Positions 28,019 through 64,000 of a stretch of DNA of 64,000 bases are shown piece by piece (positions within the stretch are counted from its first letter, which is position 1; each line of letters begins with the position of its first letter). The notes below the pieces were generated by a model. It made no database searches. It saw only the letters and a program-made list of their open reading frames with translations, and was not told the DNA's origin. The DNA comes from Halodesulfurarchaeum sp. (GTDB lineage: Archaea; Halobacteriota; Halobacteria; Halobacteriales; Halobacteriaceae): assembly GCA_034520565.1 (NCBI GenBank), contig JAXHNL010000002.1:1184001-1248000 (forward strand). Direction: 5' to 3'. The position numbers and the translations under genes were made by a program.

Positions 28019-28710
28019 AGATCTCTCCCCATCCAGATATCCAAACGAAACGGCACAAAGCTTTCCCTTGGTGCACATCGAGATCGGAGCCGGTACCGCT
28101 TCGAAGCGAACAGTGCACCCAGCCAATGGAAACCGGGCACATGAGCCGGTGGCATCGGAACCGTCAGTTCGCTCGAGTGACTCAGTCGCGGCCACGAAGC
28201 TATTCGGTCGGCGGACAGTTTTCGCCCTCGAATTCGTCGTGTCGTTCTGTTGGTTCCAAATTCGCTTCGGCCGAGTCTCACTGCAAAATCGACGATAACG
28301 CCGCTCGCTCCGGGTAAGGATACTGCACTCACTCGATCAAACGGAAATTCGCCGCATCGACCGGCCGCTTACAAAGGTAACAGCCCGTTTCGAGCATGTC
28401 TTCGCGGACGGCTTCGTCGACGAGGGGGGCCATCCCACAGTGTGGACAGGCAAATCGGTAGTTCGAGCCACACGATTGTTCGATATGTCTTAGTTGTCAT
28501 AATCTGGAGGTGGACGCGAGTAAATCTCCCACCGCACATTGTGGCCTTCCACGAACGGTGACGTTTTTAATCGCGGGCTGACGCTTTTTGGTTCCTGCCC
28601 AATCGATTGAGGTTCTGATGGGTGACACGATACCACCGTTTACCAGTAGAAAAGGGAGGTTTCCCTAAATAACCGAGAGTGGACGAGACAACGGGTTTAT
28701 ACCGGGAAGC

Positions 28711-28895
28711 GGTCGAACGGGATTGAAACCCGATGGCGAATCCGAACGCAGTGAGGATTCGCGTGGCTCAAATTTCTTCCGTGTGCGCTTCGCTCGCTCA
28801 CATGAGTTCGCTCGTTGCAGTGCTTGTGGTTCTACCGCTCGCAAAATCGAGACACTCGCTTCGCTCGTGTCTCGCATGCTCGACGGGAATTCACC
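28711..28895. repeat. Distal copy of the tRNA-Glu-associated structured repeat
   Basis: Near-identical to segments of 30084-30406 (e.g. gcaaaatcgagacactcgc..gtgtctcgcatgctcgacggga). Confidence 0.9.
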
Positions 28896-28976
28896 ACGAG
28901 ATTCACGGCAAATCAACTGCACGGATCAATTCTCCCGGCGAAACACATTTGTAACACAGTATATTAATATGTATAC

Positions 28977-29279
28977 GTGCCATCGATCAGTGCCCGGATT
29001 CCAGACGACGAAGAGGCGGAAATCCTGGAGGTAATCGACATCCTCGGTGAAGACAAAAGTACGGTGATCCGAAAGGCTCTCAGCGAGGGTCTCGGCTCGC
29101 TCAGAGAGCGCATCGCCATCCAACGGTACCAGGCTGGTGAGATATCGGTCAATCAGGCTGCACGGCTGGCAGGCGTGAGCATCGCGGAGTGGCTCGAGAT
29201 TGCCCGCGAACACAACCTCACCACACAGCTCAAACCTGACGATCTCGATGCTGATGCTGATGCTGCTCGGGAGCTATGA
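28977..29279 (+). CDS. UPF0175-family antitoxin (RHH + HTH)
   Basis: ISARIPD..DKSTVIRKAL; YQ.GEIS..QAARLAGVS. Confidence 0.85.
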   Translation: MPSISARIPDDEEAEILEVIDILGEDKSTVIRKALSEGLGSLRERIAIQRYQAGEISVNQAARLAGVSIAEWLEIAREHNLTTQLKPDDLDADADAAREL

Positions 29280-29800
29280 CTCGGATATTTCTCGATGCCA
29301 CCACGTTGATCAGCCTTGGTTCGCTCGGCGAACTGGAGTTGCTCACGAATTTCTCCGGGGATCTGGTCGTCCTGCCAGCGGTGCAATCTGCGGTCGATAC
29401 GGAGCCAGCACGCACGAACCTCGAGAGCTTCCTCGAATCACACGATATCCAATCTGGAGGTCACGAGTATGCAGATCAAATTCCCCGGGCGCTGTCACTT
29501 CTCGAGGAATCAGAGAGCAATGGTGACGTGGAAATCATTGCAGCAATACTCACTCAACGAGCGGACGATAGACCTGCCGGAGTAGTCTCGGATGATCGGC
29601 GAATCAGGACCACCGCCGATGCCTTCGGAGCGACAGTGACGGGAACAATCGGTGTGCTGGTTCGAGCCGTCGAGGCTGGAGTCGAGGAAGAGGACGGACT
29701 CGATATCCTCGAGCGGATCGATTCGCGTGGACTTCATATGACCGGTGAATTGCGAGAAAAGGCCGAGTCGCTGATTCACGAAGCGGCCGAAGAAAGCTGA
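29276..29800 (+). CDS. PIN-domain toxin (DUF3368/VapC-like)
   Basis: FLDATTLI, GD..II, SDDRR.R, VTGTIGVL; ATGA overlap with the antitoxin. Confidence 0.85.
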   Translation: MTRIFLDATTLISLGSLGELELLTNFSGDLVVLPAVQSAVDTEPARTNLESFLESHDIQSGGHEYADQIPRALSLLEESESNGDVEIIAAILTQRADDRPAGVVSDDRRIRTTADAFGATVTGTIGVLVRAVEAGVEEEDGLDILERIDSRGLHMTGELREKAESLIHEAAEES

Positions 29801-30021
29801 GCCAGTTCTTGGACACACTCAATCTCGAAGTTCGACGACACCAAGCCCTCTTATGACGGACTCGTTCGATGGGTCGCTGCCGCTGACCGAGACGAGATCC
29901 GGGCAATCAATGACTCACTCGATAGCGAGTGATCGCCAAACTGGATGGTGCCACGTGAAAATCTATCTGGATTAGCGCCCACGTGAACCGGGAAACCGGA
30001 CGTTATTCACCGCGAAGCTGT

Positions 30022-30406
30022 TCGTGTGTTCAAATCCTTTCTATGTGCGCTTCGCTCGGGGCAAAACGGTGCCGCTCGCTGCAGTGCTCGCGGTTCCACC
30101 GCTTGCAAAATCAAGACACTCGCTCCGCTCGTGTCTCGCATGCTCGACGGGATTTGAACCCGATGGCAAATCCCCCCTATCGGTCGGATTTGCGTGGTTC
30201 AAATCCCATTCCGGCGCATTTTCTCACTTCGTTCGAAACGTGCTCGCGGTTCCACCGCTCGCAAAATCGAGACACTCGCCTCGCTCGTGTCTCGCATGCT
30301 CGACGGGATTCGAACCGCGATGGCGAATCCTCACTGCGTTCGGATTCGCGTGGCTCAAATCCCTTCCGTGCGCGCTTCGCTCGCTCAAAACGTTCGCTCG
30401 CTGCAG
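30022..30406. repeat. Tandem structured repeat array (about 2.4 units of about 156-167 bp) abutting the tRNA-Glu 3' end
   Basis: Units start at about 30084 and 30240 (gtgctcgcggttccaccgct..) and contain nested inverted repeats. Confidence 0.9.
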
Positions 30407-30481
<75 letters not shown>

Positions 30482-61237: not shown

Positions 61238-61738
61238 ATGGACGTGGCGCTCGGGGGGACGTTCGACCCCATTCACGACGGACACCGCAAACTTTTTCGT
61301 CGTGGGTTCGAACTCGGCGATCTTACTGTTGGATTGACCAGCGACGAACTGGCCCCCAAGACCCGTCACGAGCCGCGGTACGTCCGACCGTTCGAGGAGC
61401 GCAAGGCCGACCTGGAGGCCGAATTGGCTGCCCTTGCCCCGGAATATGATCGCGAGTTCGAGGTCCGACGCCTCGAGAAGCCGACCGGTATCGCGGTCGA
61501 ACCCCAGTACGAGGCCCTCGTGGTGACGCCGGAAACCAGGGAGGGCGGGCACCGGATCAACGAGATTCGCCAGGACCGGGATCTCGAACCGCTGCAGATC
61601 GTCGTGGTCGAGCGGCTTCTGGCCGAGGACGGGGACATCATCTCAAGCACCCGGATCGTCCGCGGCGAGATCGACGAACACGGTACGCTCACACCGGATC
61701 GGACGGGCCGGGAAAACGACGCCTCTGCGGTCAGGTAA
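61238..61738 (+). CDS. coaD: Phosphopantetheine adenylyltransferase
   Basis: GGTFDPIHDGH, GLTSD, VVTPET, ISSTRI. Confidence 0.92.
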   Translation: MDVALGGTFDPIHDGHRKLFRRGFELGDLTVGLTSDELAPKTRHEPRYVRPFEERKADLEAELAALAPEYDREFEVRRLEKPTGIAVEPQYEALVVTPETREGGHRINEIRQDRDLEPLQIVVVERLLAEDGDIISSTRIVRGEIDEHGTLTPDRTGRENDASAVR

Positions 61739-61771
61739 GTCGGCGGGTTTCGGATTCGGCCGCTTTCAGGA

Positions 61772-62080
61772 CTACCAGGACGGCGTTTCGAATCCGGCTT
61801 TTTCGAGCAGCGGCCGCCAGCGGGACTGGATGGTGAGTCGGGAGACGTCGGCCGCATCGGCGACTGCCGTTTGGGATCGTTGGTCGCCGGCGATCAGTGC
61901 GCCGGCGTAGATGCTCGTCGCGAGGAGCGCGTCTTTCGACCGTTCCTCGACGGGGAGTTGGGAGAGAAACAGTTCCCGGGCGGCCGAACGAGCAGTGGTG
62001 TCCAAGTCGAGTCGTTCCGAGACCCGGTCGAGAGCGGCGAGGGTCGATTGTTCGGCCCGCTCGGTCCCGGCACGATACAT
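61772..62080 (-). CDS. Single-cyclin-domain TFB-related protein
   Basis: A..IYA..LIAG..RSQ..VA.AA.VSRLTIQ.RW. Confidence 0.8.
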   Translation of the reverse strand: MYRAGTERAEQSTLAALDRVSERLDLDTTARSAARELFLSQLPVEERSKDALLATSIYAGALIAGDQRSQTAVADAADVSRLTIQSRWRPLLEKAGFETPSW

Positions 62081-62167
62081 GGGCCAGAAAAGTATCGGAA
62101 TGGGGTTAATGCTTTCCCGGTGGTTTCTCGTGAGCCTTATTGGGGTGCCCGGGGTAGTAGTCGATGC

Positions 62168-62250
62168 GCGCGGGTAGCCAAGTGGTCAACGGCGCAGCGC
62201 TTAGGACGCTGTGGGGTAGCCCTCCGCAGGTTCGAATCCTGTCCCGCGCA
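62168..62250 (+). tRNA. tRNA-Leu (TAG)
   Basis: GCGCGGGTAGCCAAGTGGTCAACGGCGCAGCGCTTAGGACGCTGTGGGGTAGCCCTCCGCAGGTTCGAATCCTGTCCCGCGCA; long variable arm. Confidence 0.96.
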
Positions 62251-62699
62251 GTGCGAGACCCGACCAAAGGGAGGGTCTCGGTAAAGGCGAACGGCGAGGA
62301 ACGAGCCGTGAGCCATGAGCGAGAAAACGAGTGAACGAGCAGGCACGGATTCGAGCCCTGGAAACCGAGCGAAGCGAGGTTTCCTCCGGTTCGAATCCTG
62401 TCCCGCGCACTTTTCAGCGACACTCACCGGCGAGGGACCCCCCGGTGTCCCGAGCCGTGAGATCGCGGTTGTAAATGCGTTCACCGGATTCGAATCAGGG
62501 AAGAGCTTTGCTCTGACCGTGGTTCGAATCCTGTCCCGCGCAGTGCGAGACCCGACCAAAGGGAGGGTCTCGGTAAAGGCGAACGGCGAGGAACGAGCCG
62601 TGAGCCATGAGCGAGAAAACGAGTGAACGAGCAGGCACGGATTCGAGCCCTGGAAATCGACCGAAGGGAGATTTCCTCCGGTTCGAATCCTGTCCCGCG
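62251..62699 (+). repeat. Array of three structured units, each ending in a copy of the tRNA-Leu 3' end
   Basis: GGTTCGAATCCTGTCCCGCG(CA) at 62229, 62388, 62521 and 62680; units 1 and 3 nearly identical (292 bp apart). Confidence 0.95.
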
Positions 62700-62709
62700 G
62701 TATCAGTCG

Positions 62710-63276
62710 TTATTTCCACTTGATCGAACAGCCGCGTGACGGAATCTCCTCGACGTCGACCGGTTCGCCCGCGAGCACCGCGTCAATGGCCTGCCGCATC
62801 TCGAAGCCGGGTTCTCCGCTCGGTTCAGCGTCCGGGCTCTGGGCGTCGTCCAGCCGCCCGTGGTACACGAGCGTGAACTCGCCGTCGGTGCCATCGAAGA
62901 GGAACGGATCGGGCGTGCACGCTGCTCCGTAGGCCTCGGCCACTGCCTGTGACCCGTCCCGAAGGTAGGCGTCGTAGGCAACCGTCCCGTCCGCGACCAG
63001 TTCCCGCATTCGCTCGAACGAATCGTCGGGGTACTCCTCGGCGTCGTTGGGATTGATCCCGACGACTGCGACGTCGTCGTAGTCCGTGGCGATGTCGTTC
63101 AGCGTCTCGAACTTCGACTTCGCGTACGGACAGTGGTTGCAGGTGAACACGACGAGGAGGGCGTCGTACTCACCGAAATCCGACAGCGAGTACGTTTTGT
63201 CGTCGGTCCCCGGGAGTTCGAAGTCCGGTGCCGGCGTGTCGTGTTCGAGTTCGTCGGTCGAAGATTCGACAACCAT
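62710..63276 (-). CDS. Thioredoxin-family / AhpC-TSA-like protein
   Basis: APDFELP, FTCNHCPY, CTPD, YHGRLDD, GCSIKW. Confidence 0.92.
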   Translation of the reverse strand: MVVESSTDELEHDTPAPDFELPGTDDKTYSLSDFGEYDALLVVFTCNHCPYAKSKFETLNDIATDYDDVAVVGINPNDAEEYPDDSFERMRELVADGTVAYDAYLRDGSQAVAEAYGAACTPDPFLFDGTDGEFTLVYHGRLDDAQSPDAEPSGEPGFEMRQAIDAVLAGEPVDVEEIPSRGCSIKWK

Positions 63277-63380
63277 GCCCGACCGTAGCAGCCCCCGGCT
63301 CAAACGGATTTGGGTGGCGGACCGACCGTCCGGGACCGTCGTCTCGGGCATTTATGCGGCGGCGGCCTGTACGTTCGTCT

Positions 63381-63659
63381 ATGCCCGACCGCAAGCGAGC
63401 TCACGTCTACGTCTCCGGACGGGTGCAAGGGGTCTACTTTCGGGCGAACACGCGCGATCAGGCCCGGAAACGTGACGTCGATGGCTGGGTCAAAAATCTC
63501 GCGGACGGCCGCGTCGAAGCGGTCTTCGAAGGCGAGCCGGCCGCCGTCGAGTCGATGATCGAGTGGTGTCACGAGGGGAGCCCGGCTGCCGAAGTTAGTG
63601 ACGTCACCGTTTCCACGGAGGAACCGATTGCGCTGGAGGGGTTCGAGATCAGGCGCTAA
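63381..63659 (+). CDS. acyP: Acylphosphatase
   Basis: VSGRVQGVYFR, GWVKN..DGRVE. Confidence 0.95.
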   Translation: MPDRKRAHVYVSGRVQGVYFRANTRDQARKRDVDGWVKNLADGRVEAVFEGEPAAVESMIEWCHEGSPAAEVSDVTVSTEEPIALEGFEIRR

Positions 63660-63672
63660 CCCGTCTCGCGTT

Positions 63673-64000
63673 TCACTCCTCGTCGGCCACGCTCGGGTGC
63701 TGGGTCGGTTCATCCGGGTGCGGTTCGGCAAAGAACGATTGCATGACCTCGAGCGATTCGGCCTCTCGATCCCGGCGTTCCGACTCGGAGATTTCCTCAC
63801 AGCCCGGAGGGACGTCTCGACTGCGGCCGGTGAAGTAGCCCTCTGGAGCGATCCAGTCGTGGTAGAAATTCACGTCCGAATCCTCGACGACGGCGACGCC
63901 CACTGATGCTCCGTGTCCGGCGACGATGACCGTCTGATACGGTTGCATCGCCAGCCGTCCAGCGGCGTAGAGCCCGTCGACGCCGGTCCGGCCCCGGTCG
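63673..64000 (-). CDS. C-terminal part of an FAD-dependent (TrxB-like) oxidoreductase, partial
   Basis: The frame extends to the window edge: GRTGVDGLYAAG..QTVIVAGHG..YHDW. Confidence 0.75.
   Translation of the reverse strand, partial: DRGRTGVDGLYAAGRLAMQPYQTVIVAGHGASVGVAVVEDSDVNFYHDWIAPEGYFTGRSRDVPPGCEEISESERRDREAESLEVMQSFFAEPHPDEPTQHPSVADEE

What the first reader, a model, noticed from the sequence alone, without database searches (positions are those of the whole stretch)
62229..62699. tRNA-Leu followed by an array of 3'-end copies separated by small structured units
Seen: the last 20-22 nt of tRNA-Leu (GGTTCGAATCCTGTCCCGCGCA) recur at 62388, 62521 and 62680. They are separated by a 137-bp unit A, a different 111-bp unit B and a second unit A'. 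Each unit carries GGATTCGA, which can pair with the TCGAATCC of the following tRNA-end copy. Known: integrative elements regenerate tRNA 3' ends as att sites. Inference: these look like tandemly integrated, non-autonomous, non-coding mini-elements (att-flanked cassettes) mobilised in trans. No integrase or transposase is present in the window.
Basis: partly seen in the sequence, partly recalled or inferred. Interest (0 to 1): 0.85.

Follow-up and report, generated by a model that had tools for sequence, protein, structure and literature searches.

The report
Hairpin mini-elements behind haloarchaeal tRNA genes
The repeated tRNA-Leu tails belong to a family of small non-coding hairpin elements that sit behind about half of this archaeon's tRNA genes and occur in most salt-loving archaea searched; they vary between close relatives like mobile DNA, but what moves them is unknown.

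Summary
tRNA-Leu(UAG) lies at 62168-62250. Its last 20-22 nt recur at 62388, 62521 and 62680, separated by units of 137, 111 and 137 nt.

It is one case of a genome-wide family. My covariance model gives 31 hits in this genome. Of these, 27 lie within 500 nt downstream of 19 tRNA genes on the tRNA strand. Each unit ends in the same core:
- an inverted copy of the T-loop, running imperfectly into the T-stem and acceptor;
- a conserved capped hairpin;
- a direct copy of that tRNA's own tail.

The hairpin shows covariation, and 22 of 26 units resemble units behind other tRNAs. Unit number and content differ between species of the genus, including a precise empty site. The core occurs in 128 of 150 high-quality Halobacteria genomes. 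A second array in the window, behind tRNA-Glu, carries a 1.1-kb toxin-antitoxin cassette split into a tail copy at the T-loop.

Best reading (about 0.45): non-autonomous cassettes inserted at the tRNA T-loop/3' end and recognised as a folded hairpin. No enzyme is identified.

Rivals: a structured trailer RNA with a host function, scars of ordinary integrases, or a replication by-product.

I found no description of this family in print.

The parts
62168..62250 (+). tRNA-Leu(UAG) gene. Its last 22 nt (62229-62250, called R here) are the repeated tail.
   Evidence: ARAGORN; Rfam RF00005, 57.7 bits.
62251..62387 (+). Unit A (137 nt). It holds two 5' hairpins with GAA-type caps. The core follows at 62336-62387: an imperfect inverted copy of R, then the capped hairpin H.
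   Evidence: fold z -6.4; R1 hit 62336-62409, 92.5 bits.
62388..62409 (+). Tail copy 1, 22 of 22 nt identical to the tRNA's end.
62410..62520 (+). Unit B (111 nt), a different family. Its 5' hairpin type also lies behind tRNA-Leu(GAG), tRNA-Val(GAC) and tRNA-Val(CAC). Its core is at 62475-62520, and its inverted T-stem fits tRNA-Leu(GAG).
   Evidence: R1 hit 62475-62542, 31.1 bits.
62521..62542 (+). Tail copy 2, 22 of 22 nt.
62543..62679 (+). Unit A' (137 nt). It equals unit A except for 4 bases, which form two compensatory pairs in hairpin H. This H variant is 97.6% identical to the one behind tRNA-Leu(GAG).
   Evidence: R1 hit 62628-62701, 87.1 bits.
62680..62699 (+). Tail copy 3. It matches 20 nt, and the last two bases have diverged. 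It abuts the 3' end of the convergent downstream ORF.
30406..30481 (-). tRNA-Glu(UUC) gene, head of a second array of the same family in this window.
30139..30373 (-). Two units of the family behind tRNA-Glu, with cores at 30295-30373 and 30139-30217 and decayed tail copies.
   Evidence: R1 hits of 46.5 and 44.2 bits; sequence.
28892..29983 (-). A cassette of about 1.1 kb inserted into a tail copy of the tRNA-Glu array. It sits exactly between the T-loop's left half (29984-29989) and the rest of the tail (28877-28891). It carries a UPF0175 antitoxin-like gene (28977-29279, +) and a PIN-like DUF3368 gene (29276-29800, +).
   Evidence: Homologues lie behind tRNA-Glu or tRNA-Gly in other genomes.
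28709..28891 (-). The rest of the split tail copy, then trailer hairpins, then a further decayed unit that ends the tRNA-Glu array.
   Evidence: The only R1 hit here is weak and on the + strand: 28709-28787, 24 bits, E 4.5e-4.

Best explanation
The array is a local stack of small, non-coding, non-autonomous DNA cassettes of a family found in most Halobacteria searched. They are inserted at the 3' end of tRNA genes.

**Anatomy of a unit**
- Optional 5' hairpins of a generic intergenic type.
- A conserved core made of three parts:
  - an inverted copy of the tRNA's T-loop, running imperfectly into the T-stem and acceptor strand;
  - a GC-rich hairpin with a GAA-type cap;
  - a direct copy of the tRNA's own last 16-23 nt.

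As a single strand, the inverted arm and the tail copy pair up. Together they rebuild a duplex image of the tRNA gene's T-loop/3' end.

**Proposed mechanism**
- This folded site is what a trans-acting enzyme recognises, most likely a tyrosine recombinase. The enzyme is unidentified.
- The join lies in the T-loop, around positions 57/58.
- New units enter next to the tRNA itself and push older ones outward, where they decay.
- Hairpin modules are reshuffled between arrays by recombination at the shared T-loop sequences.

**Shown**
- The anatomy.
- The exclusive link to tRNA genes.
- The covariation.
- The mosaicism.
- The differences between species, including an empty site.
- The polarity of decay.
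- One cargo-bearing cassette.

**Inferred**
- That the structure acts as single-stranded DNA.
- The position of the join.
- The kind of enzyme.
- Whether the tail is duplicated from the target (about 0.2 of the total) or carried in by conservative recombination as in integrons or CTX phage (about 0.25).
For: **Exclusive link to tRNA genes**
- 15 of 44 ARAGORN tRNAs have a copy of their own last 18 nt within 1.5 kb downstream.
- A looser alignment finds 31 units at 19 of 43 tRNAs with a recognisable T-loop.
- Of 31 R1 hits with E < 0.03, 27 lie within 500 nt downstream of 19 tRNAs on the tRNA strand. Two are antisense re-hits of the same loci. Two follow displaced tail fragments in an island at tRNA-Arg(UCU).
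- The hairpin H core never occurs without its T-loop arms.

**Structure is kept**
- On 29 modules, 13 of them from 12 genomes outside the window's genus, 91.5% of cells are paired against 84.2% in shuffles (0 of 500 reach it).
- The covariation score is 0.253 against 0.128 in shuffles (0 of 500), and at most 0.12 when the partners are slid.
- The first tRNA-specific pair is C-G in 9 modules, G-C in 7, G-U in 3 and U-A in 1.
- tRNA-His's unusual T-loop is mirrored exactly over 14 nt in its third unit. tRNA-Gly(GCC)'s tail is mirrored at 21 of 22 positions.

**Mobility and turnover**
- 22 of 26 units match a unit behind a different tRNA.
- At tRNA-Leu(UAG), seven genomes of the genus have 3, 3, 1, 1, 1, 1 and 0 units, with different content.
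- At tRNA-Val(CAC), one genome has the tRNA joined directly to the flank that follows the unit plus tail in the others.
- A contig from a relative that is about 92% identical in the flanking gene shows another unit set.

**Polarity**
- In all 9 multi-unit arrays the tail-copy score never rises with distance from the tRNA. It falls in 8.

**Join in the T-loop**
- In 7 of 31 units the copy is exact only from about position 58, and the T-loop's left part is altered.
- The toxin-antitoxin cassette splits a tail copy at that same point. In two other genomes it is flanked by a full tail and a 17-18 nt tail starting at position 57/58.

**Burst-like copy numbers**
- Counts run from 0 to 24 per genome.
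Against: **No enzyme is linked**
- No recombinase gene lies in or beside the arrays of this genome.
- SNJ2-type integrases leave a different mark, a 13-14 nt tail fragment next to the int gene.
- Y1 transposase genes were not found in G000 or in a 98%-complete, module-bearing relative. IS200/IS605 copies show no R1-like ends.
- Cas1 was not found in two module-rich relatives. Reverse transcriptase was not found in any of five.

**No excised or autonomous form**
- No excised form or circle was seen; only contigs were available.
- No full-length element ending in the core was found in this genome.
- The core was not found in the viral-contig, plasmid or phage collections with the queries I used.

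**Conservation fits a host function as well**
- The tRNA-Leu(UAG) module, with the same imperfect inverted arm, is kept in five other genera.
- The core sequence is highly conserved across families.

**Neither insertion sub-model fits everything**
- Unit B has local tails but a foreign inverted arm, which argues against carried-in tails.
- The cargo cassette in this window has no left tail copy, which argues against simple target duplication.
Confidence: 0.45

Rival explanations
1. **Host-function RNA.** The units are parts of the tRNA primary transcript's trailer, or small RNAs of their own. The core folds either as a long hairpin or as a tRNA-like four-way junction, made of a pseudo-acceptor stem, an anti-T hairpin, hairpin H and a true T-arm. 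It would serve as a processing, termination or stability signal, or as a regulator of its own tRNA's maturation. Arrays would then arise by local duplication and recombination.
For: - The tRNA strand folds better than its complement in 41 of 53 modules, by 4 kcal/mol on average.
- The cap motif GA-N-CGAAG-N'-GAG occurs 34 times in the genome against about 4 expected. 19 copies lie in sense within 700 nt downstream of tRNAs, and 1 lies in antisense.
- A G-U pair is kept in 20 of 29 modules.
- The core is typically 74 nt long and ends exactly at the discriminator base.
- The same tRNA-Leu module is kept in five other genera.
- The core occurs in 128 of 150 genomes.
- T-runs follow the last tail copy rather than the tRNA itself in several loci.
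- tRNA-like 't-elements' processed by tRNase Z are known in Haloferax, from passages read in PMC4326828.
Against: - Units are present or absent at the same tRNA between close relatives, including an empty site and a species with none.
- Distal copies decay.
- About half of the tRNAs lack a unit.
- Copy numbers run from 0 to 24 per genome.
- The Rfam tRNA model does not see the modules even at E up to 10.
- The strand bias is partly forced by the fixed orientation of the tail copy.
Confidence: 0.25
2. **Scars of ordinary integrative elements.** Viruses, plasmids or islands integrated into the tRNA genes through their own tyrosine integrases, duplicating the tRNA tail. Later internal deletions left only end fragments between the repeats. 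These would be cis-mobilisable-element-like remnants that no longer move.
For: - Integrase-bearing islands with tail repeats exist in this genome at tRNA-Arg(UCU). They also exist in relatives.
- The toxin-antitoxin cassette without an integrase looks like such a remnant.
- Tandem accretion at tRNA genes is well known for such elements (recalled).
Against: - The core is one conserved family at 19 or more different tRNAs and across families of Halobacteria. No copy sits at the end of a gene-bearing element in this genome.
- The SNJ2-type scar is a 13-14 nt fragment beside the int gene, with no hairpin.
- The sequence between the int gene and its core site shows no likeness to the module.
- The inverted copy of the tail is not explained.
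Confidence: 0.12
3. **By-product of replication or repair at tRNA genes.** Template switching or fold-back synthesis at the T-arm palindrome of highly transcribed tRNA genes creates inverted and direct copies of the tail. Quasi-palindrome correction then keeps the arms complementary. No element-specific enzyme is involved.
For: - The inverted arm is templated from the local tRNA: 14 nt for tRNA-His and 21 of 22 for tRNA-Gly(GCC).
- The duplicated segment varies in length, either the tail alone or the tail plus 30-60 nt of trailer.
- No enzyme was found.
Against: - Hairpin H is a conserved sequence shared by different tRNAs and by different families, which chance events would not recreate.
- H never occurs alone.
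- The orientation and architecture are uniform.
Confidence: 0.08

Closest known systems
tRNA-targeting integrative elements of haloarchaea (SNJ2-type tyrosine integrases) and their integrase-less, att-flanked derivatives (cis-mobilisable elements; recalled)
   Same: - The insert lies behind an intact tRNA gene.
- It is bounded by a direct repeat of the tRNA's 3' end, which stops at the end of the gene.
- Tandem stacking occurs.
- Relatives differ in content.
   Different: - The units are 55-160 bp and have no gene.
- The repeat is 16-23 nt and starts in the T-loop. For SNJ2 it is a 14-bp core at a fixed distance from int (passages of PMC5861418).
- Every unit carries an inverted copy of the tail and a conserved hairpin.
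- About half of all the tRNAs are occupied.
Integron gene cassettes (attC) and Xer-dependent elements such as CTX phage (recalled)
   Same: - An imperfect palindrome whose structure, more than its sequence, is kept.
- When folded as a single strand it mimics the duplex target.
- Arrays grow at one anchor site, with older members distal.
- There is at least one toxin-antitoxin cargo cassette.
   Different: - The anchor is a tRNA T-loop, and many different tRNAs are used.
- There is no integron integrase, promoter or GTTRRRY core.
- Almost all units are non-coding.
- The arms are specific for each tRNA.
- Recombination has not been shown.
Casposons and CRISPR spacer integration by Cas1 (recalled)
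   Same: - Insertion at the 3' end of tRNA genes with a long target duplication (14-15 bp for casposons).
- Growth of an array at the proximal repeat.
   Different: - There are no terminal inverted repeats.
- Cas1 was not found in two module-rich, 98-99% complete relatives.
- The inserts belong to one sequence family and are not captured DNA.
MITEs, palindrome-associated elements and small mobile repeats of haloarchaea (Haloquadratum paper PMC3119063, passages read)
   Same: - Small, non-coding, structured and multi-copy.
- Depend on a function supplied in trans.
- Show strong target preference.
   Different: - The target is the tRNA tail.
- The duplication is much longer than usual target duplications.
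- The inverted repeat is internal and copies the target.
- No partner transposon was found; IS200/IS605 ends are unlike the core.
tRNA-like 't-elements' of Haloferax volcanii (passages of PMC4326828; the 2012 Biochimie survey is recalled only and could not be read)
   Same: - A tRNA-sized structure with a true T-arm and acceptor 3' strand.
- It could be seen by tRNA-processing enzymes.
   Different: - The known t-element lies upstream of 5S rRNA.
- The units here lie behind tRNAs and repeat that tRNA's own tail.
- The Rfam tRNA model does not recognise them.
- Processing was not tested.

Membership tests
Integrase-mobilised tRNA-integrating element | Direct repeat of the tRNA 3' end on both sides of the insert | tested here: met
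Integrase-mobilised tRNA-integrating element | Integrase gene within or beside the element | tested here: not met
   The units are at most 160 bp. The four loci matching PF00589 in the genome lie outside the window and not beside arrays, except in the separate tRNA-Arg(UCU) islands.
Integrase-mobilised tRNA-integrating element | Excision to a circle with a rejoined attachment site, leaving an empty site | tested here: inconclusive
   An empty site is seen in a related species. No circle or junction could be looked for, because only contigs were served.
Integron cassette / attC | Imperfect palindrome with conserved fold and variable sequence | tested here: met
Integron cassette / attC | Integron integrase next to the anchor site, and GTTRRRY core sites | tested here: not met
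   No PF00589 match lies in the window or next to the arrays. The conserved arms are T-loop sequences.
Integron cassette / attC | Cassettes carry promoterless genes | tested here: not met
   All units in the tRNA-Leu array are non-coding. Only one cassette, with two genes, was seen, in the tRNA-Glu array.
MITE | Terminal inverted repeats shared with an autonomous transposon, and a short fixed target duplication | tested here: not met
   The inverted repeat is internal and copies the target. The duplication is 16-23 nt or longer. No partner was found.
IS200/IS605-derived palindrome-associated element | Y1 transposase in the genome; subterminal hairpins like those of the parent; no target duplication | tested here: not met
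   PF01797 was not found in G000 (80% complete) or G008 (98% complete). No R1-like ends at six IS copies. A duplication is present.
Casposon-like / Cas1-mediated insertion | Cas1-family integrase present | tested here: not met
   PF01867 was not found in G010 (99% complete) or G008 (98% complete), which have 19 and 13 modules.
Retroelement primed on or copying a tRNA | Reverse transcriptase present; CCA or its complement in the copy | tested here: not met
   PF00078 was not found in 5 of 5 module-rich genomes. No CCA follows the tail copies.
tRNA gene or pseudogene (Rfam RF00005) | Match to the tRNA covariance model | tested here: not met
   Only the real tRNA is found in 61500-64000 at E up to 10. 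ARAGORN called one module in one relative a 92-nt tRNA.
t-element (tRNA-like processing signal) | Cleavage by RNase P and/or tRNase Z | not testable with these tools
   No RNA run holds the stretch.

The most novel reading that the evidence does not exclude
Haloarchaea run an integron-like cassette system anchored on tRNA genes. The T-loop of any tRNA gene would serve as the anchor site. The inverted arm, hairpin and tail core would be an attC-like site that folds as single-stranded DNA into an image of that tRNA's T-loop/3' end. A widespread host or mobile-element recombinase would stack, shuffle and occasionally load these cassettes with cargo such as toxin-antitoxin pairs, without ever breaking the tRNA.
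Probability: 0.2. Interest if true: 0.9.

Novelty: new variant of a known kind. Interest (0 to 1): 0.78.

Why it matters
tRNA genes are the classic landing sites for mobile DNA, and the repeated tails are normally read as footprints of large elements. Here a tiny, gene-less, structured unit occupies about half of the tRNA genes of one genome. Its core is found in 128 of 150 good Halobacteria genomes.

If the units are mobile, they define a new way to target tRNA genes. The element would mirror its target in a hairpin. This would imply an unrecognised enzyme activity that acts on the T-loop of tRNA genes.

If the units are functional RNAs, they are a large, unannotated class tied to tRNA expression in a well-studied group of archaea.

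There are also practical consequences either way:
- The units produce spurious partial-tRNA calls.
- They break short-read assemblies at tRNA loci.
- They provide extra copies of the attachment sequences that integrating viruses and plasmids use.
- They mark hot spots of rearrangement.

Tried and rejected
**Rfam**
- An Rfam scan of 61500-64000 at E up to 10 found nothing beyond the tRNA, apart from two weak chance-level hits.

**Public collections**
- The 16-letter core motif scanned over genome contigs gave mostly chance hits, because the pattern is too short for 596 Gb. Its only use was to hint, from three MAG titles, that the genus is Halodesulfurarchaeum.
- The same motif in viral contigs gave 6 loci. 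None matched R1 and none held a tRNA.
- BLAST of the core against the plasmid and phage collections gave no match.

**Sequencing runs**
- No RNA holder is listed for the stretch. Only Logan contigs could be laid, so starts, ends, circles and rare variants could not be seen.
- One low-depth X1 contig reads end-of-B, tail, then B again. It is too weak to use.

**Ideas rejected**
- Box C/D or H/ACA guide RNA: there is no conserved C, D or ACA box. The D'-like letters vary between units (reading).
- Split or permuted tRNA: the full tRNA gene is intact, and the copy starts in the T-loop, not at position 37/38.
- CRISPR-like array: the 'spacers' belong to one homologous family.
- A link to the integrase in the tRNA-Arg(UCU) island: of 22 integrase loci of the family examined, 3 (L173, L175, L181) show a module after their displaced tail fragment. 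A fourth, L199, shows one on the other side of its int gene. That does not exceed the share of tRNAs that carry a module, so there is no specific link.
- IS200/IS605 as the parent element.

**G-U against A-C pair counts**
- Counts on the two strands are about equal, 71 against 64, so this test is not informative.

**Calls and scripts that failed**
- Two papers on Haloferax t-elements are not held.
- One script flooded its output through a parsing bug and was redone.
Full report
**1. The observation**

ARAGORN and the Rfam tRNA model place tRNA-Leu(UAG) at 62168-62250 on the + strand. The 20 bases from the end of the T-stem onward recur exactly at 62388, 62521 and 62680. That is four matches in the window, against none in 100 shuffles.

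The first two copies reach the discriminator base (22 nt). The third loses the last two bases. Between the copies lie units of 137, 111 and 137 nt.

The first and third units, with their flanking tails, form a 179-nt repeat at 98% identity. Every unit holds GGATTCGA. In the predicted folds this pairs with the T-loop of the following tail copy, with z-scores from -3.4 to -6.4.

Contigs from an independent short-read data set cover three junctions without a difference: tRNA into A, tail-B-tail, and tail-A'-tail-flank. They cannot count the two A copies.

**2. It is not a local oddity**

The window is C2:1184001-1248000 of a 1.86-Mb, two-contig, 80%-complete genome with 62% G+C.

- Of 44 ARAGORN tRNAs, 15 have a copy of their own last 18 nt (at most 2 mismatches) 80-450 nt downstream. 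Several have two or three.
- A looser alignment finds 31 units at 19 of 43 tRNAs with a recognisable T-loop. A few of these are marginal.
- I built a covariance model, R1, from 15 cores. It finds 31 hits with E < 0.03 in the genome.
- Of those, 27 lie within 500 nt downstream of 19 tRNAs on the tRNA's strand. Two are weaker antisense re-hits of the same places. Two follow displaced tail fragments inside an island at the intron-bearing tRNA-Arg(UCU).
- Adding tRNA-Tyr, tRNA-Trp and tRNA-Lys(CUU), which only the tail search sees, some 22 of 47 tRNA genes carry at least one unit.
- The window holds a second array, behind tRNA-Glu(UUC) on the minus strand.

**3. Anatomy**

Each unit starts right after the discriminator base.

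Its 5' part is variable. It is built from hairpins with a GA-N-CGAAG-N'-GAG cap. That motif occurs 34 times in the genome against about 4 expected. 19 copies lie in sense behind tRNAs and one in antisense. The other 14 lie elsewhere, some of them in hairpin-rich spacers.

Its 3' part is the conserved core, with three pieces:
- an inverted copy of the T-loop, continuing imperfectly into the T-stem and acceptor strand;
- a hairpin H, often a 7-bp stem of the GGAAGAC type with the cap above;
- the direct tail copy.

H is never found without its two T-loop arms.

The inverted arm follows the local tRNA:
- 21 of 22 positions for tRNA-Gly(GCC);
- an exact 14-nt mirror of tRNA-His's unusual T-loop;
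- C-G where the T-loop reads TTCGAAT, and U-A where it reads TTCAAAT.

On 29 cores, 13 of them from 12 genomes outside the window's genus, the pairing statistics are as follows:

| Measure | Observed | Shuffled controls | Shuffles reaching it |
|---|---|---|---|
| Cells paired | 91.5% | 84.2% | 0 of 500 |
| Cells changed on both sides | 58 | 24 | 0 of 500 |
| Covariation score | 0.253 | 0.128 | 0 of 500 |

Slid controls give a covariation score of at most 0.12. These sequences are related, so the shuffles overstate the case; the slid controls are the fairer comparison.

The four differences between A and A' form two compensatory pairs in H. The A' version of H is also found behind tRNA-Leu(GAG) (97.6% over 42 nt) and in the nearest relative's tRNA-Leu unit. 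So this is an exchanged hairpin variant rather than four separate mutations.

**4. Signs of movement and turnover**

After removing the tails, 22 of 26 units match a unit behind a different tRNA at E up to 1e-4, often as mosaics. For example, the second unit behind tRNA-Leu(GAG) has the 5' half of the tRNA-Val units (91-92% identity) and the H of A'.

I passed 11 loci for the tRNA-Leu(UAG) comparison. Six relatives held the tRNA. In the other five the locus held no tRNA-Leu(UAG), mostly because the contig ended before it. With the window's genome, the counts are:

| Genome | Units at tRNA-Leu(UAG) |
|---|---|
| G000 (this window) | 3 |
| G001 | 3 |
| G010 | 1 |
| G008 | 1 |
| G007 | 1 |
| G011 | 1 |
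| G004 (different T-arm) | 0 |

Content and order differ between them.

At tRNA-Val(CAC):
- One genome joins the tRNA directly to the flank that follows the unit plus tail in the others. This is a precise empty site.
- Other genomes have one or two units, with swapped halves.

A contig of a relative, about 92% identical in the flanking gene, has a short first unit and an extra 137-nt unit at the end of this very array.

In all nine multi-unit arrays the tail copy never gets better with distance from the tRNA, and it gets worse in eight. That fits entry next to the tRNA.

**5. Where the join lies**

In 7 of 31 units the copy is exact only from about position 58 of the tRNA. The left part of the T-loop carries an extra or changed base. 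This is seen at tRNA-Lys(UUU) twice, tRNA-Pro(UGG), tRNA-His three times, and tRNA-Trp.

In the tRNA-Glu array of this window, a 1.1-kb piece splits a tail copy exactly between the T-loop's left half and the rest. The piece carries a UPF0175 antitoxin-like gene and a PIN-like gene.

Homologues of the PIN-like protein at 74% identity or more lie behind tRNA-Glu in three of the four genomes that hold one; in the fourth, ARAGORN found no tRNA in the locus. One of the three belongs to another genus. A 54%-identical homologue lies behind tRNA-Gly(GCC). In two of those genomes the cassette is bounded by a full tail on one side and a 17-18 nt tail starting at position 57/58 on the other.

Elsewhere the duplicated piece is longer. 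It is the tail plus 30-60 nt of trailer in G010 at tRNA-Leu and in G001 next to an island.

Unit B argues against the tails being carried in by the unit. Its inverted T-stem is the tRNA-Leu(GAG) type, while both flanking tails are the tRNA-Leu(UAG) type. Homogenisation of the tails within an array could also explain this.

**6. Spread**

- The core motif occurs in all 11 other genomes of the genus.
- R1 at E up to 1e-6 hits 128 of 150 Halobacteria genomes of at least 90% completeness, and 45 of 57 genera. Counts run from 0 to 24 per genome.
- No hit was found in 22 genomes, among them both members of one small-genome family.
- Twelve of those loci from other genera were examined. In ten ARAGORN finds a tRNA gene followed by one or two units and copies of its tail; for the other two it reports no tRNA.
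- tRNA-Leu(UAG) carries an A-type unit with the same imperfect inverted arm in five other genera.

**7. Enzymes**

| Candidate | Result |
|---|---|
| Tyrosine recombinase (PF00589) | Four loci in this genome, none in the window. One heads an island at tRNA-Arg(UCU), with a 13-14 nt tail fragment about 55 nt past its stop codon. |
| Reverse transcriptase (PF00078) | Not found in five module-rich genomes. |
| Cas1 (PF01867) | Not found in two of the five. |
| Y1 transposase (PF01797) | Not found in two of the five. Six IS200/IS605 copies show no R1-like ends. |

The tail fragment beside the island integrase is the signature described for SNJ2-type integrases (passages of PMC5861418). A module follows that fragment here, and at two of the other 21 integrase loci of the family that I examined. 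That is no more than expected from the share of tRNAs that carry modules.

The motif and BLAST queries found no module in the viral-contig, plasmid or phage collections.

**8. Reading**

Several features together are best explained by small non-autonomous cassettes inserted at the tRNA T-loop/3' end and recognised through the hairpin that mirrors the target:
- the exclusive link to tRNA ends;
- one conserved core shared across tRNAs and across families;
- mosaicism;
- filled and empty sites;
- polarity of decay;
- burst-like copy numbers;
- a cargo-bearing relative.

I put this at about 0.45. Within it I lean only slightly towards conservative, integron- or CTX-like exchange over target duplication.

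The main rival, at 0.25, is a host-function trailer RNA. Its support:
- the tRNA strand folds better in 41 of 53 cores;
- the cap motif is strand-specific;
- a G-U pair is kept in 20 of 29 cores;
- the core is tRNA-sized;
- one tRNA-Leu module is kept across genera.

Scars of ordinary integrases (0.12) and replication by-products (0.08) explain parts of the picture. They do not explain the conserved H or the inverted arm.

**9. Known or new**

Five full-text searches found no description of this family. The passages I read also hold none:
- the Haloquadratum comparison (PMC3119063);
- the Halobacterium comparison (PMC7002104);
- the tRNA-fragment paper (PMC9897764);
- the SNJ2 paper (PMC5861418).

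Rfam 15 has no family for it.

A 2012 survey of tRNA-like elements in Haloferax, which I only recall and could not read, may have listed some of these loci as structures without noting the tail repeats. Supplements were not consulted.

I therefore file it as a new variant of a known kind, namely tRNA-targeted mobile DNA. The enzyme and the mode of insertion remain open.

Noticed in passing
window 28877-29989 (minus strand reading): A UPF0175 / PIN-like (DUF3368) toxin-antitoxin pair sits as a 1.1-kb cassette inside the tRNA-Glu(UUC) array, splitting a tail copy at the T-loop. Close homologues lie behind tRNA-Glu in G001, G006 and G019, and a 54%-identical one lies behind tRNA-Gly(GCC) in G005.
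   Followed up: partly
G000:C2:516872-531000 (locus L172): The intron-bearing tRNA-Arg(UCU) is followed by two tandem islands carrying defence-like genes: a Csa3-like regulator, an N6 DNA methylase, a PLD nuclease and an HD phosphohydrolase. There is one full SNJ2-type integrase and a second 3' fragment of an integrase gene. Each is followed by a 13-14 nt tail fragment and then a hairpin module.
   Followed up: partly
G000:C2:1076917-1076991 (locus L012): tRNA-Val(CAC) of this genome has a T at position 66, giving a G-U pair in the acceptor stem. All 7 relatives examined have C there, and so does the downstream tail copy. The tail copy therefore keeps the older state of the tRNA.
   Followed up: yes
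G000:C2:1365900-1368100, 1395000-1395100, 762580-762740: Clusters of hairpins with the same GAA-type cap lie in spacers far from any tRNA. The 5' halves of the units seem to be built from a general intergenic hairpin repeat of this genome.
   Followed up: no
window 62700-63277 (minus strand) and 63382-63660 (plus strand): The array ends directly against the stop codon of a convergent ORF. In G001 the gene found downstream here lies elsewhere in the chromosome, so synteny breaks at the array.
   Followed up: no
G000:C2:481594-482419: A Cas1 gene is present in this genome, matched in two pieces that may reflect a frameshift. Two 98-99% complete relatives with many modules gave no Cas1 match.
   Followed up: no
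window 62994-63074: A weak match to the Rfam rpfG RNA (23.6 bits against a gathering score of 75.9) lies inside a coding region. I take it as chance.
   Followed up: no
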